A program made the translations under genes and the position numbers. Shown here piece after piece: positions 1 to 62,672 of a stretch of DNA of 64,000 bases. Location of the stretch: contig NW_020847478.1 in the NCBI RefSeq assembly GCF_003704095.1, positions 1 through 64,000 on the forward strand, given 5' to 3'. The stretch is from Pocillopora damicornis (lineage: Eukaryota). The notes below the pieces were generated by a model. That model worked only from the letters and a program-made list of their open reading frames with translations. It was not told the DNA's origin and did no database searches. Numbering within the stretch: position 1 is the stretch's first letter; the number at the start of each line of letters is the position of its first letter.

Positions 1-3000
1 ATAAAAAGCATTGATGATATAAAATGTATTAAGTGCTCTCGTGGCAACACGTTTTCTGACAAGCCAACTAAGCAAACTTGTAAGAAATGCTCCATTTGTG
101 CAGTTGGACAGAGAGAACTGACACCCTGCAATCTGACACATGATAGGATTTGTGGTAACTGTGACAAAGGATTCTATGGCAGTAAAGACACAGGATGTAA
201 ACCATGTTCTGCCTGCTGTAATGATAAATATGATGTGCGCATTCCTGAATGTCGAAATATAGCAAAAAACAAACAGTGCGGCTATACAGAGCGATCCATA
301 ACTGTGTGTCAGGAACAAAACAGCTCTAAGAAAACTTCTCCAAAGAAATCCTCTATCATTACAATAGTTTTGACTGTGACGACAGCACTACTATTTGTTG
401 TAATCTTAACACTGGTGATTATAAAGTGCATCAAATACCGCAGAAAAAATAGGCGTCAAAGAACGGACTCATGTACTGCGTTGCTGCCATCTGCAGACGA
501 AGGTAAAGTTTTAATCATTACCTCATATTGGGATTCAGTGATGTTGATTTGAATTGAAATGGCCAATTGATAAACAGCGATGAAAAAGGATTAAAAAAAG
601 ATCCACCAAGGGCCTTTCATCGCAAAAACAGAAAGCTGAAGACTTCAAGATTAACCCCTGGGTACTATGAACTTAAGAATCATTTTTTTTTAATAATTCT
701 CCCACCAAAAAAAGGAAATGCAAGATTGTATACAATCATAAGAACACCATGATAACTACTACCAAATTTAAAACCTATCCTCTTCCTTTCTTTAGCACCA
801 CGGAGTGAATTGATAACACTGGAAGATCCAACACCACATGGATCACAACAGATATTACATTTTGATAAATCAGGTATCTTGATCCAATTCAATGATGCAA
901 ATTGTTTCTCCAGTGATTGCCGAGGAATACAACTAAAGATATGTTGGGATGAAAATTCTATACCTCTTCAGCCTGGTGAAGTACAGCTTAGCCCTGTGAT
1001 AAAATTTCAGCCTTATGGGAAGCAACTATCCAAACCAGTGCAAGTCAGAATACCTCATAGTGCTTTGGTGTATTTAAGCAATGGCTGGAACATCAAGCCG
1101 AAAAGCTCTGTACCACACAAAGGCTCAATTGTATGGAAGGGGGAAAACAAATTCCAAGTCCACAATAATGAAGTCAGCTTTCAGGTTGATAATCTTACCT
1201 CCTATGTTATCATCGGTACCTCACTTGATAACGGCAAACCAACAAAGAAGCGCTTTCAAGGCGCTGTTTTTGGTGGAGTGGGCACAGTTGGTGTGGACTA
1301 CACAGCATACTTATATATCTTTGATGACAGTGAGTCATCATTTGAGGTATCTAGATAACAATAGTTTTTATAAACTGAGAACGTTAGAATTCCCTTGGCT
1401 TTCCTCCTCTAACCCTCAATGAGTGGCTCTGACTAGCCTCCACTGGGTACACAAGTATATTAATTTTCAGAAACCAACGATAAACGCTCTTTCATCAGGA
1501 AGTGGCAAACAAAAACAGCTTGATAAAAATCTTTTTTTAAATTGCAATAGGTATCAAAGTGAGATGTAGAAACATTCCAAGGAAACATGCATTCACACTG
1601 ACATTGAATCTTAAGATAGGGTTAAAGATATACTTCTTTTAATTAAATGATTTGTTTTGGAAATCTTCCAGAAAATCATGCAAGAAGAGAAATCAACCGG
1701 TAGAACCCTGCTTGGTTCCCCTCAGTCCTTTTATGTCGAGACTATGATTGATACTAAAGTAAAGATCTCAGTCAAAGAACCAATGGAAGGATGGATTGTT
1801 GGAGAGATAAAACCAGAGGTAGTTCTCAGTAGTGCAGTGTATTAATCAACCCTTGTCATAACAAATACGTTATTAATAAGGCATAAATGTAGCTGCACTA
1901 GTGAGTTGTAATTTGTTGCATGTAAGCTGTCTATGTTCAAACATTCAATCCCCCTAGATTCACTTCTCTTGTCACAGGCTAAAGTGTACTAATAAAAAAT
2001 GGGTCTAAAAAAAGGTTTTTAAATTGTTTAGAAAATAATAATTTTGAAAACTTTTTCAATTATTTTCAGCAAAAGTAATGGCAAATGGAATGATATTAAA
2101 TTCACTGAAAATACCAAACAATGATATTGATGATATTATTAATAGTAATAGTGATACTACACTCTGCATTGAGTCAAACAAACCTGGTTATATGAGAAGG
2201 TGAGCTCACTTCGTTGATTTGTCCAGTTTACCACAAAGAAATGGATCAAGATATCTTGAACCATGCCTCCCATTAGTTCATTAGTGAGTACTATTCTGCA
2301 TTATCAGTTTTTTGAATAATTATTGATTTTGGTTGGGGAACTGTGTCAGTTCACAAAGAGATTAGAAGTCCTTTTTGGTTGTTAATCAATCTGATGTAAT
2401 ATTCATATGGTATCTGACTTGTAGGCTTTGCTTTAATCACACAGTTCATTACACAAACAAATTTGAAGGATTCTTATCAAGCAATACCCAGAACAACAGT
2501 AAAGTTTAAACATGACAATGGCCGTAACCGAGACTTCCTTTGTGTGTTTGAACTAACTGCAGAAGATACCACAACATCGATTTGTGCTGTTGCCACGATT
2601 AGAGAGGTAAGTGCTTTTTTCATCAATCTAAATTAATGCAACTAAATAATAATTTGGTTAAAAATTAATTAAATGTGATTGTGATGAATGGATTTATTAG
2701 CCAGCATGATATTTTTTATCATACAGTTGTATGCAATAACATTTGTGGCAATTGGTTTTGCAATTCTGAAAATCTTGAAGTCTGATGTCCTAGACTTTAT
2801 ATTAAAAGGCTTAAGATATAGTCATGAAAACAAAAAGAAGACTGAGATATGTGATACATGTATAATGGACTGAACACATTGCTCAATTACACTATTTTCA
2901 TTTTTGTTTCCTCCTTGGCAGGATCCATCTAGGAAGTTTCAGGAGCACCAACCAGGATTTGGTAATGGCAGTCATCAATTTGTGACTGGGAGAAACTTGT

Positions 3001-13401: not shown

Positions 13402-16399
13402 ATGCAAATATTTTGTGTAGTAATCTTTCTGACAGTTAGAATGGACAGGACTGCCACTCATTTATTGTTACTCTTTTTTATACGTTTTCTTTTTCCTAGC
13501 CGACGCCAAGCCAGACAAATCCTTGCAAACCAACCGAATACTGGGTTGAAAAGGAAGATGGCTCACAAGAGTGTATAGCATGCGGAACTTGCCCAGAAGG
13601 ACAAGGTCTCTCAACGGAATGTGGGAGTTCTGAACTGCTGCCTTCTAATACCATGGTGAAGTGTTTGGCATGCACCAAAGGAGTTTCATTTTCCAGATAT
13701 GAAGATTCGTCCATTTGCCTTCCTTGTGCATCATGCTCTAAAGGTCAGGTGGTAGAACAAAGGTGCTCTCCCAAGTGGGATGTCAAGTGCGCAAATAAAT
13801 GTTCCAGCAAGGACAGGTACAATTATTATTACAATTATTCATTAATTGTCCCAGAATTGATCATTGCAAGCGTTTTAATTGTTAGGTGAATATACTCGGA
13901 GTCTTTGGTGATTATTTTGTACGTGCAGTGTGTAGTTCTAATACTGGAACAGGCATAAACTGTGGGAATCGTTAAAGATAACTTACCACCAATACTGATA
14001 TCTCTAAGCCATCATAATATTTACAGAAAATTTTATGTTAGTTCAGTGGCGTGCCAGCGATTATATAAAAGTTATCACTATTTCACTGGTTAGGTATTAT
14101 GATATGGACAAGGGGGACTGTTTTAAGTGCTCAAGATGCTGTGGCGATGATAGAGATGTGGTGGTAAAAGAGTGCAAAGAGAAGTTGGGAGATGGCTCAA
14201 ACATGGTTTGTTCATTCGACAGCAGTGTGAACCGCTGTGGCAAAACAACGCCTCAACCAACAACTATCATTAGCCATGTCGACCCCAAACACGATGGTCC
14301 TTATACCACTCAAAAAAGTGATCATTCCACTAAAGCGAACAATCGGACAACAACTGTTATTCTTGTGGTGATAATAGTTGTTTTCGCTTTTTGTGTTTGT
14401 TCATGCGTTTTCAAGAAGAGACTGGCACAGATGTTGAGTTGCTGTTATCGTACTGTTGAAGTGGAAGACCATCATGATTTATCAGTCATGGAGGACGGAT
14501 CATCGACTGACGGAAAGGGTGGTAAGACTGTGTAGCTTTCCTTTGAGTTCGTTCTAATAGTGTCCATTATTCAAATATTGACCTGGATGAAACTCATGAA
14601 AAATAATGTTGGAAAGTCTGGCCACTAAGATGTACCCAATTGAACCAACAAAGCTCTCAGTATCTCCATAGAATTCTCCTCTCAAAAGTGATCTTTTAGG
14701 GTGTAGTTTCATTTAAGACGTCGTCGGTTGATAGCCTAACAATATTCAAATGTAAGCATACTTCATATAGCAACATAGGAAAAGTAAGCATTCGGGAACA
14801 ACATTTCTCTTTATCTCTTTTGCTAACTACAACAGTCCTCGAGATGCAGGTTGATTAAATTCCACTCACTTTTGTAGGTGATTAACCCTCTCTTGTCAAA
14901 CTCATTAATCAAACCGACTCTGTGACATGCCCCAGACTTTGCGTTGGCAGATACTGATTCTGTTACATTCATTCATGTCTGAAATGCTTCCTCCAAGCCT
15001 GTCACATTCATAGTTTTGTATATTATAATCTTTCCAGTAGAAAATGCTAAAGAAAACTTAGAAGAGAGTGATGAGTCATATGAGTTAGGAGAAGTTCATT
15101 CAGTTGCAGAGGAACCCTTGTTGAAAGAGGTATGCAAAAGAATAGTTTTCTACCTTAAAGTTCATCATAGGTTAAGTTTACACGCGGTATATTAAGCTCT
15201 TCCCGTCAAATGCATAGCTATTGGACCTCTACGACCAGTTCAATCGTCAAGCATATTTAGAACTTAAGCATTGCCTTGAGTCTGAGGCATTGTCAGAAAT
15301 CGAGATACAAATGAGGTACAACTAAATATGTGAAGATATTAAAATTGAGAAAAGATGTGCTTTAACATATGCATGCTCAATGAAAAATTCAATTTTCCAG
15401 AGTACGTTGTAACTTATGAAGGAGCCGTAAAATTGCCCTTCATTTATGCTCAGGTACACACTTTAATGATCCTCTTAACTTAAAGAGTTTGAAAATAGTC
15501 ATAAATTAATTTTAGTTCCTCTTTGTTAAAGGGTATTCCCGAAATCTTGGACGACACTGTAACCACCAAAGAGAAAGGTGTGATAGAACTTCAGTTGGAT
15601 AGAGACTTTGAACTTACTGTCAGGGGAATTTATTGTTAATCGGGACTTTTAAATTCTTGATTTTCATCAACCAAAAGCCATTGGTGCCATTAGGGACAAG
15701 ATAGCCCGATATTAATTTATCTGTTTGAGTAAATACTATTTAATCGGAGGTTTCTTATCTTCATGATTTGTAACACCTAATAGTTTCAAATACTATGCAG
15801 CGATTAAGAGTTGGAACAAAATGAACCCAGATAAAGGGACAAATTTCTTGCAAACGTTCTACTCTTTGATATAGCTGCTTCACCAATAGAGACCCTTAAT
15901 GGAAAAGATAAAAGCTAAAAATGATTTGAGACAGAGGAGTGGAAAACTCTCTGGGTGGTTGGAAGAAGACATAAGATGTTATTTTGTTTGGGGGGGGGGG
16001 AGAACCAAGAAATGAAATGTAATACGAGTAAACCCCTATGATGGAGGTTGTAATGTTGTCTATGTTTGACTGTCTTTCCTTATTGCAGGTTCCAAGCTAC
16101 TTAGCAGCTTGTTGGATAGTGAGTCTTACCAGTACTTAAAGAAAATCTGTGATCGTTTGGACACAACCATGGCAGGCGCTGGTGACTATCGCGATGTCTG
16201 TTCGTATTATGGTATTGATCGTTATGGGATTGCCTCAATTTATGAGAAGCAGAGGGATGGGCCATCCAGAGCTCTAATCGATTACTTGGCAGCCACACAT
16301 GAACAGCTAACAGTGGCTGAGTTTGTAACTGTGGTGAGAAAAGTAGCAAAGAGAGGTGATGTCGCAAAGCTGTTAGAGGAGTATGAAGAGGAGTTGTGA
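13402..16399 (+). CDS. G2: TNFR-superfamily death receptor (signal peptide, CRDs, TM, DD). Exons 13402..13434 (upstream in-frame ATG at 13315 possible), 13500..13816, 14094..14521, 15038..15129, 15532..15577, 16089..16399
   Basis: MQIFCVVIFLT|PTPSQTNPCKPTEYW..CIACGTCPEGQGLSTECG..CLACTKG..CLPCASCSKG..CFKCSRCCGDD; TM VILVVIIVVFAFCVCSCVF; DD exon ICDRLD..GDYRDVCSYYGI..GPSRALIDYL..LTVAEFV..RGDVAKLLE. GT-AG introns with consistent phases (0,2,1,0,1). Confidence 0.85.
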
Positions 16400-19631: not shown

Positions 19632-20958
19632 ATGTGCTCCGTTGGAATATTAACGAAGACCGTAATTATTGCAGTTGTGGTAAGTTCACATTCTGTTTAT
19701 TCCAGGCTGGCAAAATTCAAGCGATGGATTAAATGCATATTGTTTCATTCAGATAGTTTGTGTTATAACCAGTAGAGAACGACGGAAATAATTATTTCTT
19801 GATATTGCTACCTATGACATGTGAGGTAAATTTCATGACATAGACCGGTAGTATTGAGCATATGAGATCGACTTCCCTTTTCCCTTATTTTTCCCTTTGA
19901 AATGCTAACTGTATACTGATTACCATGGGATAAGGAAAAAACGCTGATCTGGCGGTAACTGAGGAGGTAGACACTGTTCCAATAAAAGAAAATAAAGGTT
20001 CCTTCTTTTTCAGCTCCAAGCAAAAGGAAGAGATTGCTTGGGCTGTAAAGGTGATGAGATCACCTGGCGTAGGGATAAACCAGGAAAGAAAAACACGTGT
20101 ATACCGTGTATCGATTGCCCGGACGGAACTGAGCCGTCGATTCCTTGCGGAGGGACCGCCAAATATGGAACACACTTACATTGTGAGGCATGCAGGCAAG
20201 GAACCTATTCGGACAATTATGGAAAAGGGCCCTGTAAGCCATGCTCTCTATGCTCCGTTGGACGTACAGTGACAAGGAACTGTTCTGCGACGAAGAACGC
20301 TCAGTGTGGCTCTTGTAAATACGGCTATTACCAGAAAGTTGTCATCATGAACCTGCTTTTCTATTGCCTTCCGTGTTCTGTCTGCTGTGGGGACGGTAAA
20401 GATAAGGTAGAGAAGCAGTGCACAGATCAAGGGCTTCCAAGTCAACAACATTGCAAATTCAGAACCGCGCCCAGCTGTCAACTGTTGCGGACAACTTCAA
20501 AGATCACATCGAGCACTCCATTTCTAGGAGCAAATCATACGGCAAAGAAAGGAACAAGCCCAAAGGGACAATCAGAGGAAGCTTCTTCAGTTCCTTCATC
20601 AAGAACACCGAAGCCGTATGCAAGAACCACTGCCATAACCGCAAAACGACATGAAAAGTTAGCTGCTTCCCAGTATGGAACAAGTTCAGCCTTAGAAGGA
20701 TTCCACGGCAATAAATCAAAGGGATCTTTTTCCGATAGAAGTGTCGATATTAATAATGGCAATGGTATTGTCGTTTCTCCTTTGTATGGGATTCCCGTTA
20801 TTTTCATTGCAATAATTGTAATTGTTCTTAAGCGGAACAAGCTTGCAAGCTTCTTTGAAAGGACGAGGTGTGGTCCTATCCTGAGGTGTAGAGACGCTGA
20901 ACTCGGTAAACAAATAGAGAGTACTTGGTTGGATGTTGTGCCATTAGGAGGTAGGTGA
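19632..20958 (+). CDS. G3: TNFR-superfamily receptor (TROY/XEDAR-like CRDs, TM) with no visible DD exon. Exons 19632..19679 and 20014..20950 (donor) or ..20958 (read-through stop)
   Basis: Signal exon MCSVGILTKTVIIAVV|gtaagt; acceptor ttttcag|LQAKGRDC. CRDs CIPCIDCPDGTEPSIPCG..CEACRQGTYSD..CKPCSLC..CSATKNAQCGSCKYGYY..CLPCSVCCGDG; TM YGIPVIFIAIIVIVL. Phase-1 donor G|GTAGGT at 20951. An N gap follows at 21518. Confidence 0.8.
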
Positions 20959-21350: not shown

Positions 21351-21673
21351 TTAGACCTTTAATATCAATCTATAGGTACAGCTGTTTCATGTTTAAGACA
21401 CAGATAATGACATAGATTGCTAAAAGCGAGGAGTGGTGAACATGTGCTTTGTGTACGACTTGACAAAACGGGTTTCATTTCAATTATCAATTAAATGCTA
21501 ACAGTGTAATATTTTCGNNNNNNNNNNNNNNNNNNNNNNNNNNNNNNNNNNNNNNNNNNNNNNNNNNNNNNNNNNNNNNNNNNNNNNNNNNNNNNNNNNN
21601 NNNNNNNNNNNNNNNNNTTTCCTCTGCTACACTTTCGTCGGTGTAATAACAGTAAAGGATAATATTGTAATAA

Positions 21674-27548: not shown

Positions 27549-28561
27549 GAATAAAACAATACGTCAAATTCTCAATGAAAATAACTCACCTTACTTTCAC
27601 AGCGTATCACTTGTTATCTGACCATTTACTTTGATGAAAAGTACCCACTACATAAGAAAAGCCAAAGCCTGAACACTCCATTTCCGAACGCCCAATCCGA
27701 GGAGAGAAAAATGCCAGTGCAAAATCGTGTCTCTAAAACGTAGTTACATGTCCAGATCATTTGCGACGCATCTCTTATATTTGGCTTGACCTCGATGTTT
27801 TCGAAATAGGGTTTCCACTTTAATTTTTCTTACAGATTGGTAATTTAAGATATTTCATCTTCCATTCTGTTTCCCAGGTTTNNNNNNNNNNNNNNNNNNN
27901 NNNNNNNNNNNNNNNNNNNNNNNNNNNNNNNNNNNNNNNNNNNNNNNNNNNNNNNNNNNNNNNNNNNNNNNNNNNNNNNNNTTTTTTTCTGAGTAATCTT
28001 TGTACTTTGTCTCTCCTGAAAATTTTTGACCAGAAGGTAAACAAAATTAAATTGTTTCAGAATAAAATATGATTATTCTTTAATTCTAGGAACATTTTAC
28101 CTGTCCCTTGTTAACCAGCAGATAAACAGAATTAGTACAAAGAGACTAAATATAAATTGTGGATATTATCTTGTTCTTTAAATAATGAATTTTTTTAAAC
28201 TTCTTTACTTCTTTACAATCCAGTGGGCGAGATCTTTGAATTCAGCGTGTGATCAAAGTGTAACCTTTTCTTACAACCCAACAACATTATCCAAAACACT
28301 TGTGAAGTGGACAATTTAGCTCATTTAGAAGGAAACCCGGCCTTAAAAAAAGAGAGATTTATACGAATCAAATCATTCACGCAGTCAGTCTTCTTCAACA
28401 CAAATAGCTGCAATTCAGCTATGAATCCCACATACTTGTAAAAGTTGTCTGATGTAAAGCAAGTCTAGCATCACTTTCCATTAATTATCGCTTGAGAGAG
28501 CCTATGAAAAGCTTTGCTAATTTTATTGCTGGGCTCCCTGAAAGTCATCAATTCGCTAATA

Positions 28562-31500
28562 TTAGTTTTCCGCATTTTTCCTTATGTAGGGTCTTAGTTT
28601 TTGTGCTATATCATTTCTTCCGATCTCTTTCAGCATCCTTACAAGACAACGAATAGGATAGCTGGGGTACAAAGTTTGCAGCTGGTTCATCAGCCTCTTG
28701 GAGGGGCTTCCACCTTCACTTTTAAACTCATTTTTCAAGGATTTTCGTACTTCCGGGGAAATTAGTTTGTATTTAGCAGCCAAGCGCTCGTAGTCTTGCC
28801 GGAAACCTGATTTTCCGTTATCAAGCCGGGTGCAAACCCAATCCAACAAATCCAAGTTGTTTTCTTCCAGCTCCTCCAAGGTTACATCGTCTACAAAGAA
28901 ATACAAAATTCATCAATCTGATGAAAGCTTTACACAATTGTAATTCAAGATCATGTTCACAAGCTAATGCATGTAACGAGGAGTAGTGTTTGGAACGGGC
29001 CAAAGCAAAGAACGAAAAATGATAGAAACAATATTAGATTCGTGAAAAAAAATATATAAATCTAAGTAGTTTATTCAGTCAGTTTTGGTCGATATAGGAG
29101 CTCACCGGGCCTGAGTTCCTCTTGTGATGAAGCTGGCTTCACTTCGATTTGCGCCGGTGGAAACTCGACTGAATTCTCCGATTTTCCCCACCTGAGGAAA
29201 CAAGGCCTGCAGAACCATCCATGACGAGCCATTACCACTGTTAGTGCAAACAGGAATGTAATTCCAAGCGCTACGCCTACTCCGGAAAGAATAAGGAGCA
29301 CTTCATTTCCACTCCCCTCTTTCGGAGACTTTGTCGATTTGGTGGTGGTTATGGATTGGTCGATCCTAGATCTAGGAAATTCGACTGAGTAAGTGGAAAA
29401 TGCTGGCGATGTAACCTTTTCTCCTTCCTTGGTTGGAAAGGGTGTCGGTGTACCTCTTTGCAATGACATCTGTGTGGGAGCCCAGGGAATCCACTTGGCA
29501 GTTGTGGCCGGGGTATTTGTGCTGCGCACATAACTACAGGGCGACGAACGCATTTTGCACTTCTTCAGATAATTTCCGCTGCACTCTTTTGGAAGCTCAT
29601 CTTTACCATCATGGCAACAATCCGAGCAAGGCCAACAGGCAAAACTAAACGGAAAAGAATAAAAGCCTTTCTGGCACTCTGTGCTGCACCGAGTGTTCGA
29701 GACCAGGGTGCAGTTCTTGACCAGTGCTTTCCCTGTAGAGCATATTGTGCATGCTTTGCACTGCGCTTTGTCATATTTTTCTGAGTATGTTTTACCCAGT
29801 TGGCACGAAACGCAATGAATGGGTGTCCCGTATTTCACTGATGTACCACATGGCACAGAAATCTCTGATCCCACGGGACAGTCAGGACAATCTACGCATT
29901 TGTATTTTTTCTGAGTTGTGCCATTCCAGTGTATCTGTTCTGATTTGCACGGAAAGTCTCCTCCGACACGGCAGATCTATACGAGACAATGAGAAAAAAC
30001 ATATTTATATGGATAAATCAATTGCAGTTATCGTTTTTAAAGTAGATTCCGAATGACTCAAATCGTATCCATCAGGGAAGAGCTGAAATCGTATTCATAT
30101 TGTGAAACTGCTGTAATCCAGCTGAATGTAACTGAATGTATTCAAGAAATAATCAACCGATTGTCATAGAATTCTATGAAGCAAACCTGGCGGTATAAGT
30201 GAGTTCAGGCCACATTGCACTCATTCGTTTGTTTTGTAGCTTACTCTTTGGGTGAGTTTTTTCATCCCTCTTTTGTCCCTTCAAAATATACTTCGAACGC
30301 GACTCGTTCACAAAGTTAAATCACCTCTCCATTCTTTCCTGGGAACGATTGCGTGATTTAAAATTCACTTGTGGGAGCTAAAACGGCGTTCACATCGGGT
30401 CAGCAAAACCATCCTGAGATGGCTATCATGTTGCAAAACAATGTGTACATGCCATATCGTGGAGACCTCGATGATGAAACAAAAGGTGAGCATGCTGATT
30501 TCATTCATGTTCGTAGCGTCAAGAGCTGGTCGTTGAGAATCAGGTTTGGCACACTTCCCATCCAAAATTACTCACCCATATATGGGGTAATTTAGTTAGC
30601 CCTTTGTCAGAGCGATTGACGAAAAGATAACGCTCGAAACCTCAGCTTTTAAACTCTTTACGGTGGCCAATTTACGTTATCGACTCAGTTGATAATACTA
30701 AATTACCCCGTCATGCTCTCCCACCGACGCAGCACCACAGTTTCTATAGAAACTTACCCCTTCACCCATATATGACTTGAAAATACGGTATCTTTCATTA
30801 AAGATCTATGCTAGGTCGACATGCTTTAATTTTGTATTTTTTGTTAGCTTCATTGGCAACCTAAGTTTAGACGACTCAACAATCGCCGACACTTAACTAA
30901 AACAGTCGTGCGCCCAAGTCCAATTTTGTTACATGTTACGATACAAACCTTATGCTATCAGTTTCAACCATAAAAGGATAGGTTTGTGAAGTCGCAGTTA
31001 AGCTTAAGTCTCGTGACTACCTTGTGACAGGATATGCATATGACATCAACATTGCTATGAACTGATGTCATCATCAAGGGTGTTTTAAGATTTACTAGTC
31101 TTACAAAGAATGATCGCTGATACATATGTTGACTGTATGATTGAGAAATATAAATATTTTTAATTTTGGGTCATAAATGATTTACAGTATATTTCAATTG
31201 CGTGGTGTGATGCTGTCTAGTCAGTTTTTACAATAAACGAAAGTGAATGGACTTCCTGAAGATAGATAATCAAGCCAATTACACCTTTTACCTGTGCACT
31301 TTCTTCTAACAAAGTGAACTGTAAACCATACAATCTAAATTTCGACGTCATTTTTCTAGTTGGATAAGTCATGATTGAGTTCTAGACAACCACGGACAAA
31401 TGATTCGGTCGCTGTTTACAGGAATGTCGCGAATCATGAACCTTTGAGGTCGTATATCAAAATTGAGAATAGCGTGAGTCATCACTCTTCTGAAACTAAC

Positions 31501-31727
31501 ACGTAAGCACATTTAACTTCACCATTTACCACTTTTCGAAAAAACGAATATCATTTCATTAACGTAACCAAATTAGAGAAAAATAACTATACGAACACTG
31601 GAAAGTCAGAACGTGCATTGATCATGCTAAGTTAAAAGGTTTCCCTTACCAGCGTTCCGAAGATGAAAACAATCAAGAACCGTTTTGTCTTCGCATCGTT
31701 GTAACCAAACCACGATCTCCTCGACAT
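28562..31727 (-). CDS. G4: TNFR-superfamily death receptor. Exons (minus) 31727..31650, 29976..29106, 28890..28562
   Basis: Exon 1 MSRRSWFGYNDAKTKRFLIVFIFGTL|gtaagg. Exon 2 ICRVGGDFPC..CVDCPDCPVGSEISVPCG..CWPCSDCCHDG..; TM VLLILSGVGVALGITFLFALTVVMA; donor G|GTGAG. DD exon DDVTLEELEEN..VCTRLD..DYERLAAKY..GSPSKRLMNQL..IGRNDIAQKL. Phases 0 and 1. Confidence 0.87.
30585..30761 (+). mobile_element. Short Penelope-like-derived insertion with 13-bp target-site duplication, in intron 1 of G4
   Basis: TCACCCATATATG flanks both sides (30572..30584 and 30762..30774). The internal ..taacgctcgaaacctcagctttt..tacggtggccaatttacgttatc..cccaccgacgcagcaccacagtttc resembles a common anthozoan repeat (family from recall). 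Confidence 0.7.
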
Positions 31728-31914
31728 CGCGTTGAAGAAGCGTGAAACGTGATTTCCTTTCTCCTTTCTCAAACTCAAGCTGACTTCCACCGAGAAAAAA
31801 AGGTAAAAATCCTTTCCTGTTTGAACGACTACCACTCTATGATAAAACTACGCGACATAAAAATGACGCACGTTAAAACCACACCAGACGTTCAGCGTTT
31901 TCGGAGCATTATTT

Positions 31915-31925
31915 GGGGATTCCCC
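31915..31925 (-). promoter_or_regulatory. NF-kB (p50-type) site GGGGAATCCCC ~190 bp upstream of the G4 ATG
   Basis: The plus strand reads GGGGATTCCCC. An identical 11-mer lies upstream of G6. Confidence 0.6.
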
Positions 31926-31929
31926 TATT

Positions 31930-33360: not shown

Positions 33361-34551
33361 AAAACCTACAAAGCTACATGCAACACAACTCATCTCGCAA
33401 CGGTAACAGTGACGCTCAATCTAGTTTCGTGTCATGAGCTTTAGCCGCCTTAGAATTGTAAAAGTGAGAAATGTATGTGGTCGTGACCCGTTCCTAATTG
33501 ATCTCGCTCATATTACAAATTCCGCCTTTCTTCAATACGAACCTTATGTGTCTAAAAATTTCACTTATTTATGAATGTATTCTTTCAAAAGTTCAACGAC
33601 ATCGTTCCTCAGTATATTCAGTGAAAGGGACTTCAAATCTTTTAAGGAAACCAGAACTACAAAAAGAAAAGGAAAATTACTGATATTTATGTTGTTAGAC
33701 TGGAAAAGAACGCTACGTTGAAAACATTAAGCTGGTAAACGGAGGAGAAACTGGTCACGGAGAAACGTCACGGTCTGAGTATCTGAGTTCTAATCCTACT
33801 TTGTACTGTCCTCTATTTTGTTCCCTTTGTGTTTATTCGAACTTGTTTATTTACTTATTTGAAGCAACTTTTTCTTTCAATAATTAATTTTGAGAACCAA
33901 ACCTATCACGAAAATATTACGCTGTTAGCATTTCATAAATAAACGAAATGAAACCTGTTTTGTCAAGTCTTACATAAGGTACATGTTCACCACTCCTCGC
34001 TTTTAGAAATCTTTGTCATTATCTGTGTCTTAAACATGAAACAGCTGTTCCTATAGATTGATATTAAGGGTCTCCCTTGGGATCTGCGACTTTAAGCAAA
34101 CTACGACAGCGACTGCACCAAGGACGAGTCAAAGCTGAGAACGTGAGCCTTGACAAAAAATTATTTAAATTTCCATTTGGAACTCAGCACTGTTCACATA
34201 CGTTATACTTAAGTTGAGGCGTAGCGCCGAAAGAGATAGTTAACGCATGTAGCCATTCGCGAAACTCTAGTTAAAAATAGAAATAATTTTTTTAATCGCC
34301 GTCTTCTCCTGTGTTTTTGTCCTGATTGGTTGGTCCTTTAAGAAAGTGTCTCAACGACTGAGTAATTTGCTGTCATTCGACTGTGTTCAAAATAGTGCAA
34401 ATGCACCTATCTCCTATCTCTAATGGCACAACATCCAACGGAGTACTCTCTGTTAGTTTGCCGAGTTCAGCGTCTGTACACTTCAGGATAGGACCACACC
34501 TCGTCCTTACAAAGAAGCGTGCAAGTTTGTTTCGCTTAAGAACAATTACAA

Positions 34552-35747
34552 TTATTGCAATGAAAATAATGGAAATCCCACACATAGGAGAAACGACAAT
34601 AACAGTGCCATTATTATTGTCGACGCTTCTCTCGAAAAAAGTCCCTTTGATTTACTGCCGTGAAATCCTTCTGAAGCTGAACTAGTTCCATGCTGAGAGG
34701 TAGGTAACGTTTCATTAGAGGAAAATGTCGCGTTTGTGGTTATGACAGTGGTTCTTGCGGACGGCTCCAGTGTTCTTGATGAAGCAGCTGAAGTAGCTTC
34801 CTCTGATTTTCCCTTTCGGATTGTTCCTTTCTTCGCCGTATGATTTGCTCCTAAAAATGACGTGCTCGATGTGATCTTCGAAGTCGTCCGCAACAGTTGA
34901 CAGCTAGGCGCGGCTCTGAGTTTGCAATGTTGTTGACTTGGAAGCCCTTGATCTGTGCACTGCTTTTCTAACTTATCTTTACTGTCCCCACAGCAGACAG
35001 AACACGGGAGGCAATCGGAAAGCAGGTTAATGGTGACAACTTTCTGGTAATAGCCGTACTTACAAGAGCCACATTGAGTGTTCTTCGTCGCAGAACAATT
35101 CCTTGTCACTGTACGTCCGACAGAGCATAGAGAGCATGGCTTACAGGGTCCTTTTCCATAATTGTCCGAATAGGTTCCTTGCCTGCATGCCTCGCAATGT
35201 AAGTGTGTTCCATATTTGGCGGTCCCTCCGCAAGGAATCGACGGTTCAGTTCCGTCCGGGCAGTCGATACACGTTATACACGTGTTTTTCTTTCCTGGCT
35301 TATCGCTACGCCAGGTGATCTCATCACCTTTGCAACCCAAGCAATCTCTTCCTTGTGCTTGGAGCTGAAAAAGAAGGAACCTTCATTTTGTTATTGGGAC
35401 AGTATCTTCCCCCTCTGTTACCGCCAGATAAGCGTTTTTTCCTTACCCTATAGTAATCAGCTTGTATACAGTTAGCATCTTAAAGGGAAAAATAGGGGGA
35501 AAGAGAAGTTGATGTCATATGCTCAATACTACCGGTGTATGTCATGAATTTACTTCACATGTCATAGGTAGCAATATCAAGAAATAATGATTTCCGACGT
35601 TCTCTGCTGATTGTAAAACAAACTATCTGAATTAAACAATATACATTTAATCCATCGCTTGAATTTTGCCCGCCTGAAATAAACAGAATGTGAACTTACC
35701 ACAACTGCAATAATCATAGTCTTCGTTAACATTCCAACGGAGCACAT
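34552..35747 (-). CDS. G3': inverted paralog of G3. Intact ectodomain, frameshifted before the TM into a tail-less hydrophobic C-terminus (candidate GPI-anchored decoy, or pseudogene). Exons 35747..35700, 35364..34552
   Basis: Exon 1 MCSVGMLTKTMIIAVV|gtaagt; ectodomain cysteines retained. A 1-bp deletion near 34642 (GGGA-CTTTTTT vs GGGATCTTTTTC in G3) gives ..SKGLFSREASTIIMALLLSFLLCVGFPLFSLQ*. The donor equivalent is mutated (GATAGG vs GGTAGG). Confidence 0.65.
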
Positions 35748-38056
35748 GGTTCAGGAGCACGTCTCCAGTCCACTCGACTTGGTCAGGCAAGGTTTTCGAG
35801 ATATTGTGTCCGAAATGGCAAACTCTATTCAAGTAAAGCAATTTGCATGGTCACAAAGCTTGAGATATGAAAAGGTACTTTATAACGAGACTGGTCACAG
35901 CATGCCGGTTTCAAATCGTTTAACGATCAAGAGATTTTTGAAAGAACAGTAACACTGTACTTACGGTTTAGTCTTTATTTAATTTCTTGTCGAGTCCTGC
36001 TGAACAAGTTGAGACTTTTGATACATAAATAATGTCTTGTAATGAAAAGAATCGGTAGATGCTCATTCGTTCCGCTCAGTAACGAGATGTTTAAAAATAT
36101 GCTGACAAGCAAAATGCCTACCGGTTGGTACTAGATTAGAGCATGTGGGAAATCTTATACTGCCAAAAAAAGGCAATTGACGTCATCCCAAAGACATCTC
36201 AACGGTAACAAGACACGGTGAAACAAAAAGGGTTGGGAGGTGGTATCAATCAATCGAAAGGAGAATCTCAGAATTTAGCACGAATTTGCAAGACTCCATT
36301 GAATGCGAATGCAATCACCCTCACCAACTCTCTTTTGACCCAGTTCTACTCTTTCTACCAGACCTTGCTTTACATCCTCCCTCAATTTCCAAGTTCTGAT
36401 CGAAACGCGTCCACACCATGGCTATACTAAATGTGAAGTCGATCTATTTACCTCAAAAATTACACCGCAAAAAATCCCTCGTTCGCCCACAATTTAGCCA
36501 AATAGTGAATGCCTGGGAAACGTCTTGTTCAAATTTCGTTTTCATTTTTACGGAGAACGCGCTGCATATTTGGTATTCATTATAGGAAAACATGACGTTC
36601 ATGGCAGGCGTTCCAGGGCCTGGAAAACTCATTGTACACTGTGTTTTGTTGACAGTTTTAAATCGGCTATCCAGCGGGGGTTATCACGGTGTCTGTTTAG
36701 TGTTTTCCTGAAGTGGTTAATGATATTCGACACTAGTTTTTCAGCATCAAGTATTTTTTCCCCTGATTTTCTAGTGTGCTGTAACACAGTATTTTCTATG
36801 TGTTGCCATGGGTCGGCTAACACCGGGAAAACGCGATATTCAACTTTGATTAAACATGCCAATGAAAATCCTGTTTTCCTGAGCATTTCCCTTGGTAACA
36901 AGTATGTGTGAATCCGTGTCCGAAAGCATTTTCGTATGAGAGGATAACTCACGTATAGCAGCGTTTGAAGTCATGTTTTCTTCAAACTTGGAATAAAGGG
37001 CTTTTTTGGATACGTTCAAATTCCTCTGTAATTAAGAGTTGAAAAATTTGCCCAAGCTTGGCCCTGGGCATGTGAAGAAATGAAGCAGGAAGTTGTGACA
37101 GCCCATGTCGTCTCTATGTCGAGACGGGAATTAGCACGTGTATGTTTATGCAAACAACTTATTGTAGTTCGAGATCGCCCAAATTTCGGGAAATTAATAC
37201 TGAAAAGTACAACGTGAACAAGGAGAGAACCCTGATATTGTAAAATTTTCTAACCTGTTGAGTTATAGAGAGGAAAGCTACACGATAGATTAGTCATGAA
37301 TGAGCATTTCAAGCGATTCCGACCTCAATAATACGAAAAACACTTGATCCACCCTGGTTTAATTGAGGTAATGTGCTTTTGGTGGAATTTTTCCTTTTCC
37401 TATGGGAACTTGTGGTGGGGATTAAGGACAACCGGAAAATCCACAAAAATCAAAACTCGAAAATTTCCCAGCTTCATGGATATCAACCGTAAATTCGCAG
37501 GATACTCAAACAATTCGCAGCGTTAAATCAAAGATTTAGTCGCAAAGGAAACAAAGTTTAAAAAGTACCCTCATAGTTTTTATTCATAATACCATCATTA
37601 AGTAGACATTAATCCTCATAATATAATACGAGGATTAGGGGAGATCAATCAAAATTAGTTTCGGTCAGACAACGCCTGGGTTCTATCTTTATCTCAGCGG
37701 CGGACAGAAATAAAAGACTTCGAAAAAAGAAAGTACACTTGCTTCGCAACTTCTCCAATCCTGTTTCAAATACGAAAATATGCCTCTTGCAGATACATGA
37801 CATAATACATGACAACGATGACGATTTCAAATGCAAAGACGAGAAACAGTGAACGTAAACGGAAATGTCATCCCAAGTAGAGAGGTCAAGCATACATCCT
37901 AATCCAGGCCAACATATAAAATTAAAATGGAATCGAATTAGGGAATTTCCTTTGCAGGCGACAAAGACAACGGTATACTGCAAGCTGAAAGTGAAAAGAA
38001 ATCCCCCGACCAAGACTAAAGAGAGGAGGAAAATCGTCGTGCAGAGAAGAGGGAGA

Positions 38057-51924: not shown

Positions 51925-54900
51925 ATGGGAGAGCGATTGTTAAACATTGCACACCCGGACTCAGCAAATCTGACATCGAGTGGGGTGTCTACCGCAAAGA
52001 AGGATGCTATCATTGCCATTTGTTTTGTTGCGCTGGTGAGTAACGTTTTGATTCTTTTTTTGTAATAAAACGATAAGCACACCAATTTCTAACAAATCTA
52101 ACCATAATTTTTTCCTTTCATTGCCTCCATTTACGGCTGAATTTAAGGGGTGGTCAACATGTGCTTAGTCATCATTTAAAGCGAAAGTGCTTCGTCACGT
52201 AAAACCTTGGGCGTCTTAAATCGGCGAAATATCGTAAGGCTTCTGCTCGAATACATTTTCCGTTTGAGATATGACCACCAAATGGTTTTTTGTTTCCTAC
52301 ATTCATTTATTCGTCGTTTTTGACTATTATGTTTTTCACTGTTATATTTTTTCGTGTCGTAATAGCTGGCGATGAAATGAGATGCCAATGCAAACCACAA
52401 TCTGTATGACAAAAATTTGAAGCTTTTTGTCAGATACTGTGATTCCAGCATTCATATCCTACACTTACTGTAAACGTATGATGTATGATATTCCTTTATG
52501 CGCAAATTAGCTCTCCAAGTCGGCATGAGACCTTCGGTTCGCGTTTGAAGAACATAATAATTTTGCTGACCCCTGTGGTTGTAACATAACGATTTTGGAC
52601 TACTCAGCATTTCACTCGTATTGAACAATACATCAAGTGCGTTTAGACGTTAAAGACTTAAATAATTTGTGGTCATTATACGAATAAAACATTGAAGTAT
52701 AAGTCGCCAAAGTGCGTATTTTTACATTGAAAATAGCGTCCGATCCCACGCTCAAACTGGCCGCAAGACGACGAGGTCAAAAAAAGAAAATGATGATGTT
52801 TATATAATTAGATGATAACTCCTTTTAATATGTTTAAATTATGTAATTGAGATACGTTTCCGACAGTATTTGAAACGTTTTGTTTGCCTTTAATATAATG
52901 TGACATAAAACTAAATAGTTATCGAAATCGAGTTGTGACATTCACTGAGAAAATCATCGATGACAAACATTTTGTCACGGATTGGACGCATGCATAAGTC
53001 AGCGACGTACCGGTGTACCACAGAGAGGTTTTGATGTAGGTGAAATCTATGTTGAAGTGTTATATAAACTTGGATAACATTTGATTGTGTCGCTTCTTGC
53101 GTTAGTAAGGTTTTCTCTTGACGGGAAATGTACGTTATGGTTACGTCAAATCCAAAAATAAGTCGAAAGCGAGATTGGCATTTTATTTTTCTCCACAGAG
53201 CTTACATTTACGACAATTACTGTTACGAGTGTCAATGTAGAGCGGGGTTGTTCTTAGGCAAAATTCAGGATCGTCGGTAACAGCAACAGACTGATTTATT
53301 TCCACGTAGTCGACTTCTCGACTTTACAGCACTAAGCTTCTTCACATTTACACACACCCGTACACACTTCTTCTTTTTTTGACAAAACTATCGCTTTTAT
53401 AAAAATAAAGTCCAAGGATCTAGAAACTTTTCTAAAGAACTAAATTAAGAAGATTAACACGGTTTCTAAACCCGAGTAATTACATAAGAAATAGAACGTT
53501 CTTAAGAAGATTAACACGGTTTCTAAACCTGAGTAATTACATAAGAAATAGAACGTTCCAGAATGTTCTTATATAAGAAGGTCACCGCTGGATGACTTCG
53601 GGTTCTAGACTGTTCTATAGAATGTTCGAGGACTTTAATTTAGACAATTTTTCGTAACAATTATATTAATTGTAACTTTCAATCTTTATTTTATGAAAGT
53701 GGGCATATATCTTTTTATAACTATCTGTTTTGAGAGACAGGTTGATCTTTATTCTTTTTTCTTTAACAGCTTTGTAGGACTGGAGCAGATGTCCTGTGCA
53801 AGCCAGATCAGATACTGTTGACTTATACCGGAAAGGTGGGATATCAATGTTTAGACTGTCCCACATGTCCCCCCGGATCGCAGCCTTCTGTTCCATGTGG
53901 ATCCACTATCGAAAACTGGACAGCCATTCACTGTGTTCCATGCCCACTTGGAAAAGCATTTTCTGACAATTATGATAAAGCTCAGTGCGCAGCTTGTTCC
54001 GTATGCTCGACAGGGAAGGCAGTACTCAAGAACTGCACTCGCGTCTCAAACAGTAAGTGCAGTAGATGCAGAAACGGATATTACTATGAGTCTTTTTCAT
54101 TTGCTTGCAAGCCTTGTGTGGAATGTTGTAGCGATGGAAATGACGAGTTCGCCAAAGAATGCGAACGCTACGATCACAAATGCCAAGTTCGACCCACGCC
54201 CTGCAGCCACACCCGGACAACTCTTTTGGGAACAACAACACCCACTGGAACTTTGCCAACAACTCAGGAGACACATCTAACTGATATGTATAACAAAACA
54301 ACGACGGGACACAAAGAAGAGAAAGGCTTACCTTTTAATGAGTTGAAGTCGTCGTTGAAACCAACTCAGGTTGACTATAAGGTCTCAGAAGAAGAACGAG
54401 AGTCTGGAAATGCTACTGGAACTGAGATTCCGCTCGCAATAATCTCGTTTGCGGTAATTGCTTTGCTTTCCATAGTAATTATTGTCTTGATTGTTCTTAA
54501 GAAACCAATTAGACTACGACTAACACTGAGGCATCCAAGAGAGGTGGATTCGAGTGATATTGAGAATTATTCTTCTCACGGAAGAATACGGTTTGTGTCT
54601 AATCAGTCCCAGTCCCGTGGCTCTGCATCTCCTCTTCTCCATCCAGCTGCACTCTCTAATCATAATTCGTTTACACAACACCAGCAAAATGAATTAGCAG
54701 CAGATGCACTGATTGAGTCTGGAATATCTTTGTTAAGTGAACCAGCATCACTACTCCAAGATGGGTCTGAATCCTCTCTTCCAAACCGTCCGGAACCCCA
54801 TCGTCCTCTTCAGTCTGAAGCAACTCAAGCAAGTGGATCTACGTCATCTCTTCACACCTTGACTGATTCATCTGAGGCAACTGGGTCATCACCTCTAGTA

Positions 54901-55839
54901 GGTCTGTCGAAAGAGGCACCTACTCCAAACCCTTCCAATTCATCCGAACCCAACCAAGGTGCGTCTTCTTTGACCAGTGCCTGTCAATCAGCTCAGTTTA
55001 GAAGGCCTGAATCATCTCATCTAGATCACCGTGATTCACCCAAAGGCAATCCTTGTTCTATTTTGTCCTGTCCTACACAATTACCATCTCAGAATAGAAG
55101 ATGTGCATCTTCACAGGCAACTGATTCCTGCTCACCTATACAAGCTGAATACACATGTACATCAACGACTGGTAAGTTAATCGGGAGTAAAACCGTTGTG
55201 TTTTGTTATGCTTTTCTTTCTATTCTCCGGAAAGTTAAGCTCGACTCATAGGTGGACATTTACAACGATGCAGTACCATCTGTATCTTCCCCTTAAAATT
55301 TGACCAGAGGAAGCAGTTTTTAATCTCATAACCTTTGCTTTGAAACATTCAGAAAAGACTATAATTAACATCTCTTCTCCGGTGGTGTTAAGGAAGTAAC
55401 CGTTCCCGTGCAAGAGGTTTAATATTCATACTGTTGTGTCACAATGACTTGACTGTACTTACAATATTTATTTTGGTTCTTAGGTGGTATGACTCTTGAA
55501 AAGCTGGATGAAAATCATGTAGAAACGTTTGAATGGATGTGCATGAAACTTGATGAAAAAAGATCAGGTATGCGATATGACTTTGAAAAGTTGGCTTCAT
55601 GCTACAAAATTTCGCTCACAGCTCGTGAATCTTTGAAACAAGAGTTCCACAGAGGTAGTCCTTCTCAGGCTTTGATGGCTCATATTAAGGCTGAACACCC
55701 AAATCTGCCCATTTATCAACTTATTGAAGACCTGGAAAAAATCGGGCGGAAAGATATAGCGGAGGGATTAAAGCCACACGTGTTTGGAAACGATGACAGA
55801 TCACCAACACCAGATCGCTCACCTCGTGTTAATTGCTAG
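51925..55839 (+). CDS. G6: TNFR-superfamily death receptor with a long Ser/Pro-rich cytoplasmic linker. Exons 51925..52035, 53770..55171, 55484..55839
   Basis: Exon 1 ends ..KKDAIIAICFVAL|gtgagt. LCRTGADVLCKPDQ..CLDCPTCPPGSQPSVPCG..CKPCVECCSDG; TM IPLAIISFAVIALLSIVIIVLIVL; donor G|GTAAGT. DD exon MTLEKLDEN..MCMKLD..DFEKLA..GSPSQALMAHI..IGRKDIAEGL. Confidence 0.87.
53445..53558 (+). repeat. 57-bp tandem duplication in G6 intron 1
   Basis: ttaagaagattaacacggtttctaaacc(c/t)gagtaattacataagaaatagaacgttc occurs twice. Confidence 0.9.
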
Positions 55840-61200: not shown

Positions 61201-62672
61201 GATCAGAGCCTTCGGTACCATGTGGAACCAAAATTGAAAATTGGACCGATATTCACTGTGTTCCATGTCATCTTGGCAAAACATACTCTGACAAATACGA
61301 CAAGGCTCATTGCAAGCCCTGCACGGTATGCTCGACAGGGAAAGCAATATTGAAGAACTGCACCCTTCAGTCAAACAGCAAGTGTAGCAGGTGCAAAGAA
61401 GGATATTACTATAAACCTTTGTCGTTTTCATGTGACCCTTGTTCAGAGTGTTGTGGAGATGAAAAAGACTTAGTTGAAAGCGAATGCAGTAGTTACAAAC
61501 ACAAGTGCAAAGTTCGGTCCACACCGTGCAACAAACAAATCAGGTCCACCAAATCAACGCTCAGACTGACAAAACCCACGCCTCCTCCAAGCATTGTGTC
61601 AACACATCAACCAACAAGTTCAATTGTCCTGAAAGAAACTAAGTCGTCAATAATGTCAACTCAGGTGGTTGATAACGACGCGCCGACAGACATAGGAAAG
61701 ATCGGAATAATTCTGCTTGCAGTTGCAGTCGTAGTTTCTTTGGGAATTTTCGTCGCGATCGTTATTACGAAATGCGGCAGACCAAGAAATACACTGAAGC
61801 CTTCCGGGGAGCAGGAATCGACGAGTATTGAAAAAATCTCTCCCAAAATCAATGCAGCTTCACAATCCAATGAATCCATATCACCTTCTCTGCATCCCGT
61901 TTTTATTCAATCAAGTGGATCAATGACACTTCTTCACAACTGGTGTGAGTCGTCCGATGGAAGTGGGCTTCCAATACCACAATCTCAAGATTCAGCATCG
62001 TTACCGCCTTCACGGTCCGACGCGCCTGCACATGTTGAATACGCAGTTAGCCCAGGTAAGTTCAGCGGTAGTCGTTGATTACTTAATTTCATTTTATGAA
62101 ATATTTCAAAAACTCCTCGCGCTCTAATTTGTAAATAGGTGCGTTTAGACGAGAGTATGTGAACAGGGTTTTAGCAGTTTAGACTAGATTTTTTCATTTT
62201 ATGAAAACATAGCATAGTTCCCTATTGCTCAAATGTCACCCTTATCAGATTTGGTAGGGTATTTCGTTATGGGAACTGTAGTTATTGGAAATAGGGTTGT
62301 TTCGGTTTGAGCAATTCAAATAATCATCACCAAACTGGATTTCTTCTAGAGGATGTGACCCTCGAAAAGCTGGAAGAAAATCACCATGACGTGTTCGACT
62401 TGATGTGTGATGAGCTTGAAACCATGCAAAGAGGCCGATGGAACTTTGAAAGACTAGCTTTCCGGTACAACATTCCATCCACAATCGTGAGATCTTTGAA
62501 AAATGCGTTCCAACGTAACGGTAGTCCCTCTCATGAATTAATGGACCATTTGAAGGCGATACACCCCGATTTACCTCTTTATCATGTTATCAATAACCTG
62601 GAGAAGATTGGAAGGAATGATATCGCACAGGGATTGAGGCCGTACCTGAAAAAAACGATGAAATTTCATTAG
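58264..62672 (+). CDS. G7: TNFR-superfamily death receptor. Exons 58264..58392 (alternative ATG at 58345), 61092..62055, 62350..62672
   Basis: Exon 1 ends ..MMTRKDIVAALWLFML|gtgagt. VCPIGANFLCKPEQ..CLDCPSCPAGSEPSVPCG..CDPCSECCGDE; TM IGIILLAVAVVVSLGIFVAIVI; donor G|GTAAGT. DD exon EDVTLEKLEEN..MCDELE..NFERLAFRY..GSPSHELMDHL..IGRNDIAQGL. Confidence 0.87.
60289..60720. repeat. Nested short interspersed repeats/MITE fragments in G7 intron 1
   Basis: aataatggtaattggactgagt.., a self-complementary gtaatcacat..aataagcacg../..agtgcttgtttatt..atgtgattac segment, and short ctgcactgaat tandem units. Confidence 0.45.

What the first reader, a model, noticed from the sequence alone, without database searches (positions are those of the whole stretch)
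1..62672. Modular death-receptor array: one ectodomain type, four output architectures, tails joined at phase-1 introns
Seen: ten TNFR loci or fragments in 64 kb share one ectodomain plan but end differently: ZU5-UPA-DD (G1), DD (G2, G4-G7), a short DD-less tail (G3), or no tail (G3'). Every intact TM-bearing exon ends in phase 1 and every DD exon starts in phase 1. The DDs fall into divergent types (G1/G5-like, G2, G4/G6/G7). Inference: this is a birth-and-death receptor array with signalling and decoy members, analogous to the primate TRAIL-receptor cluster. Shared intron phase would allow tails to be swapped by exon shuffling or read-through splicing.
Basis: partly seen in the sequence, partly recalled or inferred. 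Interest (0 to 1): 0.72.

Follow-up and report, generated by a model that had tools for sequence, protein, structure and literature searches.

The report
Coral death-receptor row with frameshift decoy
A reef coral keeps an old row of cell-death receptor genes, and a younger copy of one of them carries a one-letter deletion, shared by many corals and present in their RNA, that removes its signalling tail and likely turns it into a surface decoy, while swapping of tails between neighbouring genes appears to be real but rare.

Summary
Ten TNFR loci or fragments and the phase-1 junctions are real, but there are three architectures, not four. G3 is an ordinary death receptor whose DD exon falls in an assembly gap: its orthologues carry a full DD. 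Phase-1 DD exons are genome-wide (17 of 21 predicted outside the window), so shared phase reflects descent. Ectodomain and DD trees agree for the window's genes. Two things go beyond ordinary duplication. (1) G3', a Pocillopora-level duplicate, has a 1-nt deletion, a lost donor and a gutted DD exon. The shifted frame ends in a GPI-signal-like tail (27 of 28 listed relatives), is spliced in RNA, and its CRDs show dN/dS 0.20 against G3. It is a likely decoy; relaxed polymorphism argues for decay. (2) Tail swapping shows in relatives: Acropora G1-type models carry a G2-type DD (AU p<0.001), and Oculina isoform models switch DDs at the phase-1 junction. TNFR-ZU5-DD is already listed in a 2016 supplement. 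The scan's first stage also flagged the frameshift on this window (e1-9561231).

The parts
1..502 (+). G1 CRD-TM exon (5' part cut by the contig start); phase-1 donor
796..2961 (+). G1 ZU5 exon (796-1346), UPA exons (1672-1818, 2445-2606), linker exon (2922-2961, phase-1 donor)
   Evidence: exon chain inferred from orthologue models, not from reads
4245..4582 (+). G1 death-domain exon, phase 1
10880..16399 (+). G2: split CRD exons (from 13500), TM exon ending 14521, two small cytoplasmic exons, DD exon 16089-16399; 5' start approximate
   Evidence: (P0130 is 100% identical in the CRD and DD parts compared)
19632..20950 (+). G3: signal exon 19632-19679, CRD-stalk-TM exon 20014-20950 with intact phase-1 donor; DD exon missing from the assembly
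21518..21617 (.). N gap where the G3 DD exon is expected
27982..39528 (-). inverted duplicate block holding G4, G3' and G2', flanked by N gaps; 87-90% identical to its counterparts
28562..31727 (-). G4: signal exon 31727-31650, CRD-TM exon 29976-29106, DD exon 28890-28562
   Evidence: (both introns seen as joints)
33565..33656 (-). G3' remnant DD exon, 78 internal codons deleted in frame
34552..35747 (-). G3': signal exon 35747-35700, CRD-stalk exon 35364-34552; 1-nt deletion near 34641 gives a 21-residue hydrophobic C-terminus; old donor changed GT to AT near 34412
38060..39195 (-). G2' remnant (truncated DD exon; small exon with a stop)
42676..43502 (+). G4' pseudogene (69-nt and 7-nt deletions; no signal exon or DD exon found)
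46482..48587 (+). G5: signal exon 46482-46529, CRD-TM exon 47018-48008, DD exon 48247-48587
   Evidence: (TM-DD joint in 4 of 4 runs)
53770..55839 (+). G6: CRD-TM-long Ser/Pro linker exon 53770-55171, DD exon 55484-55839
   Evidence: relative P0297
61092..62672 (+). G7: CRD-TM exon 61092-62055, DD exon 62350-62672

Best explanation
This is a row of seven TNF-receptor genes that end in a separate phase-1 death-domain exon (G3's is inferred from orthologues), plus a younger inverted copy in which G3' carries a shared, transcribed one-base deletion that likely converts it into a GPI-anchored decoy for G3's ligand. Shown: the gene layout, the phases, the three lesions of G3', its spliced RNA and its low dN/dS. 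Inferred steps: (1) G1-G7 bind TNF-family trimers through their CRDs and cluster their DDs to recruit DD adaptors; G1 signals through an UNC5-like ZU5-UPA-DD module. (2) After the split from Stylophora, the stretch G2(3' half)-G3-G4 was duplicated; G2' and G4' decayed. (3) In G3' the deletion switched translation into a frame of the TM-coding DNA that already read as 21 hydrophobic residues followed by a stop. The protein would enter the ER, be cleaved near a Ser about 31 residues from its end and receive a GPI anchor, or else stay held by the helix with no cytoplasmic tail. (4) With CRDs 92% identical to G3 it would bind the same ligand without signalling and so dampen G3; the unused donor and DD exon then decayed. 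(5) The phase-1 last exon is inherited, not made by shuffling, but it has allowed occasional tail swaps in relatives.
For: Full DD in 6 of 6 G3-type models. Starred clades match between CRD and DD trees for G1, G2, G3+G5 and G4 of the window. Phase 1 in 17 of 21 outside DD exons. The shifted tail is in 27 of 28 listed G3'-type proteins, full length (21-23 residues, mean KD 1.8-2.25) in 25 of 28. G3' contigs cross the frameshift without a gap in runs X15 and X17, and a spliced signal-exon contig of G3' type is in X17. G3 vs G3' CRDs: dN 0.033, dS 0.168, ratio 0.20, Fisher p 6e-5; the pseudogene pair G4/G4' gives 0.47. At most 6 of 12 CRD changes fall on the G3' branch, against 18-31 expected if neutral; all 21 Cys are kept. 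0 of 29 variable CRD sites among 21 G3' sequences is a Cys (p 0.008). The layout small-residue site, 7-residue spacer, hydrophobic tail fits the PredGPI description. Only 2 of 56 test shifts in 28 TNFR exons gave such a tail, one being G3 itself. Swaps: AU p 2.6e-4 and 2.4e-5 on the DD trees and 1.4e-5 on the CRD tree; Oculina isoforms.
Against: Among 21 full-length G3' sequences the CRDs vary as much as the stalk (29 of 146 vs 14 of 81 sites, Fisher p 0.72) and about twice as much as in 6 G3 sequences (0.043 vs 0.020), as relaxed selection would give. Counting only variants seen twice, the Cys result weakens to p 0.07. The low dN/dS may date from before the frameshift. 3 of 28 G3'-type proteins are shortened. 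The old reading frame is still open for 74 codons behind the shift, so the shift could be young. Frameshifts often preserve hydrophobicity (PMC7084103, passages), and my GPI criterion was ad hoc, with no predictor run. G3'-type proteins were picked by cluster, so unshifted alleles could be hidden. The swap evidence rests on annotated models, and the groups for the AU tests were chosen after seeing the trees. The G7 rows form a clade only in the DD tree and are unresolved in the CRD tree.
Confidence: 0.55

Rival explanations
1. G3' is a transcribed pseudogene in early decay; its hydrophobic tail is a by-product of the frameshift, and the whole window is ordinary tandem duplication.
For: Three lesions in one gene; both sister duplicates (G2', G4') are broken; CRD polymorphism is not lower than in the stalk; the same hydrophobic reading is latent in G3 itself; PMC7084103 passages.
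Against: dN/dS 0.20 and at most 6 changes on its branch; no Cys lost in 22 sequences with complete CRDs; the ORF and tail are shared across diverged variants; such a tail arose in 1 of 27 other TNFR exons.
Confidence: 0.3
2. One reading: the array is an active modular system in which exon shuffling or read-through splicing at phase-1 introns gives one ectodomain four outputs.
For: All junctions are phase 1. Acropora G1-type models carry a G2-type DD starting at the DD-exon boundary. Oculina LOC144653853 isoforms X1/X3 and X2 share the CRD-TM part and differ in DD type. Fused G2+G3 models exist in two species.
Against: No supported incongruence among the window's own genes; G3 is not DD-less; G3' arose by frameshift; phase 1 is genome-wide; the G1 architecture is shared by six coral genera, so it is old and stable.
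Confidence: 0.1
3. The inverted block (G4, G3', G2') is an uncollapsed second haplotype or a scaffolding artefact, so G3 and G3' are alleles.
For: The block is bounded by 100-N gaps; P. verrucosa models list G2 and G3 twice on one chromosome.
Against: Divergence is 10-17% at introns and synonymous sites, whereas G3 differs by only 1-3% in protein between Pocillopora species; letters of both types appear in all 4 runs laid.
Confidence: 0.05

Closest known systems
Coral TNFR expansion (Acropora digitifera, 40 TNFRs, 13 with DD; PMC4979521)
   Same: Many CRD receptors with and without DD. Its supplement lists 10 A. digitifera TNFR proteins with a ZU5 hit, and 02522Acd has TNFRSF, ZU5 and Death hits.
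   Different: The parts I read (text parts 1-2 of 4 and the supplement rows) give no gene structure, no frameshift decoy and no DD swap.
Human TRAIL receptors DR4/DR5 with decoys DcR1 (GPI) and DcR2 (truncated DD) (PMC10968836, passages)
   Same: DD receptors beside a DD-less relative that would be GPI-anchored; DR5 and DR4 ectodomains are among the PDB sequence hits of the G1 orthologue.
   Different: Orthology was not tested and p75NTR scores higher; the ligand is unknown; G3' gets its tail from another reading frame; anchoring is untested.
GPI-anchored CEACAMs derived from a TM exon (PMC2832619, PMC13212111, passages)
   Same: A small mutation in TM-coding DNA of a duplicate yields a GPI signal; described as having happened several times independently.
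   Different: There the TM frame is cut short by a stop codon; here the shift lies about 14 codons before the TM segment and the whole tail is read in the other frame. Different protein family and phylum.
UNC5B cytoplasmic ZU5-UPA-DD module (PDB 3g5b)
   Same: Top fold match of the G1 orthologue model (E 1.9e-18, 421 columns) and top sequence match.
   Different: The ectodomain is six TNFR CRDs, not the Ig/TSP1 domains of UNC5 (recalled); autoinhibition and dependence-receptor behaviour (recalled) are untested; the model is modest (mean pLDDT 67.5, pTM 0.42).

Membership tests
TNFR superfamily, death receptors (G1-G7) | Extracellular TNFR cysteine-rich domains | tested here: met
   PF00020 hit at E<=3e-6 in all 9 ORFs that open a CRD region; over the curated cut-off in 6 of 9, just under in G4, G4' and G6
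TNFR superfamily, death receptors (G1-G7) | Signal peptide and single TM segment | tested here: met
   TM segments in 7 of 7; signal exons spliced for G4, G5 and G3/G3'; G1's 5' end is outside the assembly
TNFR superfamily, death receptors (G1-G7) | C-terminal death domain | tested here: met
   Pfam Death over the cut-off for G1 and G5, weak for G6, absent for G2, G4 and G7; a profile of all six hits p75NTR and FADD DDs; G3 from orthologues
TNFR superfamily, death receptors (G1-G7) | Binds a TNF-family trimer and recruits DD adaptors | not testable with these tools
   No assay; no complex prediction was run
GPI-anchored decoy receptor, DcR1-like (G3') | Intact ligand-binding ectodomain, no cytoplasmic DD | tested here: met
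   21 of 21 Cys, 12 differences in 156 residues from G3, stop before the old TM end
GPI-anchored decoy receptor, DcR1-like (G3') | C-terminal GPI signal (small-residue site, spacer, hydrophobic tail) | tested here: inconclusive
   Layout fits by a hand-made rule; no predictor is available; a tail-less TM anchor is not excluded
GPI-anchored decoy receptor, DcR1-like (G3') | Shares its ligand with a signalling paralogue and inhibits it | not testable with these tools
   Inferred from 92% CRD identity only
UNC5/ankyrin/PIDD-type ZU5-UPA-DD module (G1 tail) | ZU5, UPA and DD in this order | tested here: met
   All three over the Pfam cut-off in P0002; fold match to 3g5b
TRAIL-receptor (TNFRSF10) cluster | Orthology to DR4/DR5/DcR1/DcR2 | not tested
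   No tree with vertebrate receptors was built; treated as an analogy
Exon-shuffled receptor array | Incongruent ectodomain and tail trees among the array's genes | tested here: inconclusive
   Not seen for the window's genes; seen for Acropora G1-type models and an Oculina gene
Exon-shuffled receptor array | Chimeric transcripts | tested here: inconclusive
   Only 28550-48549 was laid, with contigs, and 15 of 85 joints were shown; G1-G3 and G6-G7 are untested

The most novel reading that the evidence does not exclude
Corals tune TNF signalling in two ways not described in the papers searched: Pocillopora made a true DcR1-like GPI decoy by moving into the second reading frame of a death receptor's membrane helix, and the phase-1 last DD exon serves as a swappable cassette, both in evolution (Acropora) and by alternative splicing (Oculina).
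Probability: 0.3. Interest if true: 0.75.

Novelty: new variant of a known kind. Interest (0 to 1): 0.5.

Why it matters
PMC4979521 lists the role of DD-less invertebrate TNFRs as an open question and reports TNFR expression linked to coral heat stress. G3/G3' is a matched pair with 92% identical CRDs, one signalling and one not, so the question can be tested with two constructs. If G3' is GPI-anchored, it is a young example of a new anchor read from an alternative frame. The check also corrects annotation: one 'DD-less' receptor here is an assembly gap, and fused two-receptor models of G2+G3 exist in databases. A preprint reads two-TM P. damicornis models as in-frame duplications; I did not check whether those are such fusions.

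Tried and rejected
G3 as a decoy: rejected. G3' frameshift as an assembly error: rejected. Shared phase as evidence of shuffling: rejected (acceptors predicted by pyrimidine count only; 26 rows printed, 3 duplicates and 2 fragments lacking their 5' part dropped; in the 4 misses the second-ranked site was phase 1; the genes are related, so the binomial p overstates). Acropora proteins as orthologues of the C521 ZU5 paralogue: unlikely, ZU5 48% to G1 against 28-30%. A scan of JGI metagenome contigs for G3 loci found none. Chimeric joints: none among the 15 shown of 85, which is no evidence of absence. G4' had almost no cover in the four RNA runs, also no finding by itself. Four runs with share 0.00 are not used. 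The single-sequence fold of P0002 failed (pLDDT 33); the 13-sequence fold was used. Pfam scans of intergenic ORFs gave nothing clear. No complex prediction was run, because G3 and G3' are too alike for it to separate them and the ligand is unknown. One paper search returned nothing, and one paper was not held. Cluster 1 mixes G3 with an unrelated kinase fragment (6 of 15 listed), so its size of 283 is not used. Splicing of G1-G3 and G6-G7 remains untested by reads.
Full report
What the window is. It is the first 64 kb of contig C4113 of G000. The closest named proteins are from Pocillopora: P0130, named P. damicornis, is 100% identical to G2 in the parts compared, and a P. verrucosa model is 94% identical to the G1 ZU5 exon. 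Six-frame searches find ten TNFR loci or fragments. Self-comparison shows an inverted duplicate: 15028-21517 matches 39195-33909, and 29076-30144 matches 43500-42499, mostly at 86-91%. The likely old order is G1-G7 on one strand, with a copy of G2(3' half)-G3-G4 now lying inverted between N gaps. The orientation is not verified.

Intron phases. 7 of 7 intact TM-bearing exons end in phase 1 and 6 of 6 intact DD exons start in phase 1. Contigs of four RNA runs from four studies, laid on 28550-48549, show the G5 TM-DD joint in 4 of 4 runs and the G4 joint in 2 of 4. As a control I took stretches around other TNFR and DD hits of G000. The best predicted acceptor is phase 1 for 17 of 21 distinct DD exons on 11 contigs; 5 of the 26 printed rows were dropped as duplicates or fragments. 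Phase 1 is therefore a family trait. It permits swapping but is no evidence of it.

G3 is not DD-less. Its donor at 20950 is intact and a gap opens 568 bases later. A search of G000 with the matching stretch of G3' finds only the window. Six G3-type models from P. verrucosa, P. meandrina and Stylophora all end in a 108-residue DD of the G5 type. Runs X18 and X20 hold a joint from a G3-type exon end to the start of that DD exon (table 5c). One of the four architectures is thus an artefact.

G3'. It differs from G3 by a 1-nt deletion near 34641, a donor changed from GT to AT, and a DD exon missing 78 internal codons. The shifted frame ends in 21 hydrophobic residues and a stop. Of 28 listed G3'-type proteins (11 of 11, 15 of 182 and 2 of 2 members of three clusters), 27 have the shifted tail, 25 at full length; two end after 11 residues and one ends after the CRDs. 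Twenty of 24 listed runs hold the stretch, from 8 studies, 6 of them RNA. G3' contigs cross the shift without a gap in X15 and X17, a spliced signal-exon contig of G3' type is in X17, and unspliced contigs cover the old intron, as a lost donor predicts. For function: dN/dS against G3 is 0.20 in the CRDs, 0.62 in the stalk, and 0.47 for the pseudogene pair G4/G4'. With Stylophora as outgroup, 3 changes are G3'-derived, 6 G3-derived and 3 unpolarised, against 18-31 expected on a neutral branch. No variable CRD site is a cysteine (0 of 29, p 0.008; p 0.07 for variants seen twice). The C-terminus fits the GPI layout given in PMC2571997 (passages), with a Ser candidate 31 residues from the end. A like shift gave such a tail in 2 of 56 trials on 28 TNFR exons, one being G3 itself (my own criterion). 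Against: among 21 full-length G3' sequences the CRDs vary as much as the stalk and twice as much as in 6 G3 sequences; the old frame is still open; frameshifts tend to keep hydrophobicity (PMC7084103, passages). I put a functional DD-less receptor at about 0.55-0.6 and GPI anchoring at about 0.4.

Trees. I built CRD and DD trees on the same 41 rows, leaving out near-duplicate cluster members, proteins lacking either domain, and G3'; G2 and G3 are represented by P0130 and P0128. For the window's genes the supported clades agree. Two conflicts lie outside the window. First, three Acropora TNFR-ZU5-UPA-DD models sit inside the G1 clade by CRD (99/97; with Montipora 97/93) and are nearer G1 by ZU5 (48% against 28-30%), yet their DD falls in the G2-type clade (96/98; 99/97 after dropping 13 rows, 7 long-branched and 6 redundant, and adding 5). 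Holding all G1 DDs together is rejected (AU p 2.6e-4 and 2.4e-5), and so is the reverse on the CRD tree (1.4e-5). The groups were chosen after seeing the trees, and long branches meet in both. Since Montipora shares the G1-type DD with Oculina and the pocilloporids, a swap on the Acropora line is the simplest reading. G1-type and G2-type genes are same-strand neighbours both here and on C521, so a deletion or read-through is a plausible route (inference). Second, isoform models of Oculina LOC144653853 are identical up to the DD-exon boundary and then carry either a G4-type or a G6/G7-type DD (AU p 0.016). These are annotation models, not checked against reads here.

G1. The TNFR-ZU5 architecture, mostly with UPA and DD, is found in Stylophora, Oculina, Montipora and Acropora, with partial or aberrant models in Desmophyllum and P. 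verrucosa (8 hits). A model of the Stylophora orthologue (mean pLDDT 67.5) matches the UNC5B cytoplasmic domain best. It is old, and it is on record: the supplement of PMC4979521 lists 10 A. digitifera TNFRs with ZU5, one of which I confirmed also has a Death hit. That UNC5's module is autoinhibited is recalled and untested for G1.

Literature seen. PMC4979521: abstract, text parts 1-2 of 4, supplement rows. Passages only: bioRxiv 10.1101/2024.07.27.603686 (no ZU5, decoy or GPI in its main text; supplements not seen and may bear on this), PMC2832619, PMC13212111, PMC10968836, PMC2571997, PMC8195603, PMC7084103. The 2014 PNAS paper on coral TNF was not held. Searches listed no paper describing a GPI-type coral TNFR or DD swapping; most subscription journals are outside the library. 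The scan's own note e1-9561231 names the same frameshift; I had recorded that reading earlier, and it is not independent support.

Verdict. What is new is a shared, transcribed frameshift paralogue that likely acts as an anchored decoy, plus tree and isoform hints that the phase-1 DD exon has been swapped now and then in other corals. New variant of a known kind; interest 0.5.

Noticed in passing
G000:C4113, about 109,400-118,600, 144,000-145,000 and 155,400-156,300 (L029-L032): Five more TNFR CRD exons lie further along the same contig, so the cluster extends beyond the window.
   Followed up: partly
L002:9102-9422 + (C4113 about 83,100-83,400): A phase-1 death-domain exon (Pfam Death E 5.9e-13) with no CRD exon found in L001-L002; its gene was not identified.
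   Followed up: partly
L003-L004, L033 (C521): A paralogous pair, a ZU5-bearing TNFR followed by a G2-like gene on the same strand, and a second TNFR with a ZU5 hit at about 37-38.5 kb; no DD exon was found for the first ZU5 gene.
   Followed up: partly
L015-L018 (C2431, C2867): A different TNFR type (three CRD exons on C2431, one on C2867), with weak ZU5-like hits beside two of them.
   Followed up: no
P0001, P0074: P. verrucosa models join the G1 TM-ZU5-UPA part to an unrelated N-terminus with no CRDs and no DD; either an annotation fusion or an ectodomain swap.
   Followed up: no
P0133, P0176, P0177: Database models fuse G2 to G3 in P. meandrina and Stylophora, skipping G3's signal exon; probably mis-joins, though read-through is not excluded.
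   Followed up: partly
P0084, P0085, P0087: A. digitifera isoform models of the G1-type gene stop after UPA and lack the DD.
   Followed up: no
P0041: A G3-type protein carries the G3'-type residues just after the TM segment, a hint of gene conversion between the two copies.
   Followed up: no
window 22815-23489 + and 21618-24734: A protein-kinase fragment sits between two inverted copies (82-84% identical) of an unidentified element between G3 and G4; the fragment is common in ENA samples.
   Followed up: partly
window 5861-6816 and 9857-10802: Two 67% identical direct copies of an unidentified sequence between G1 and G2; no Pfam hit.
   Followed up: partly
window 50578-51015 + and 43769-44011 -: Fragments that look like decayed retroelement ORFs (a weak DUF6451 hit for the first; the label is recalled), the second just behind G4'.
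   Followed up: no
window 62794-63737 and 31931-33357: Local direct duplications of about 470 and 200-320 bases at 89% identity.
   Followed up: no
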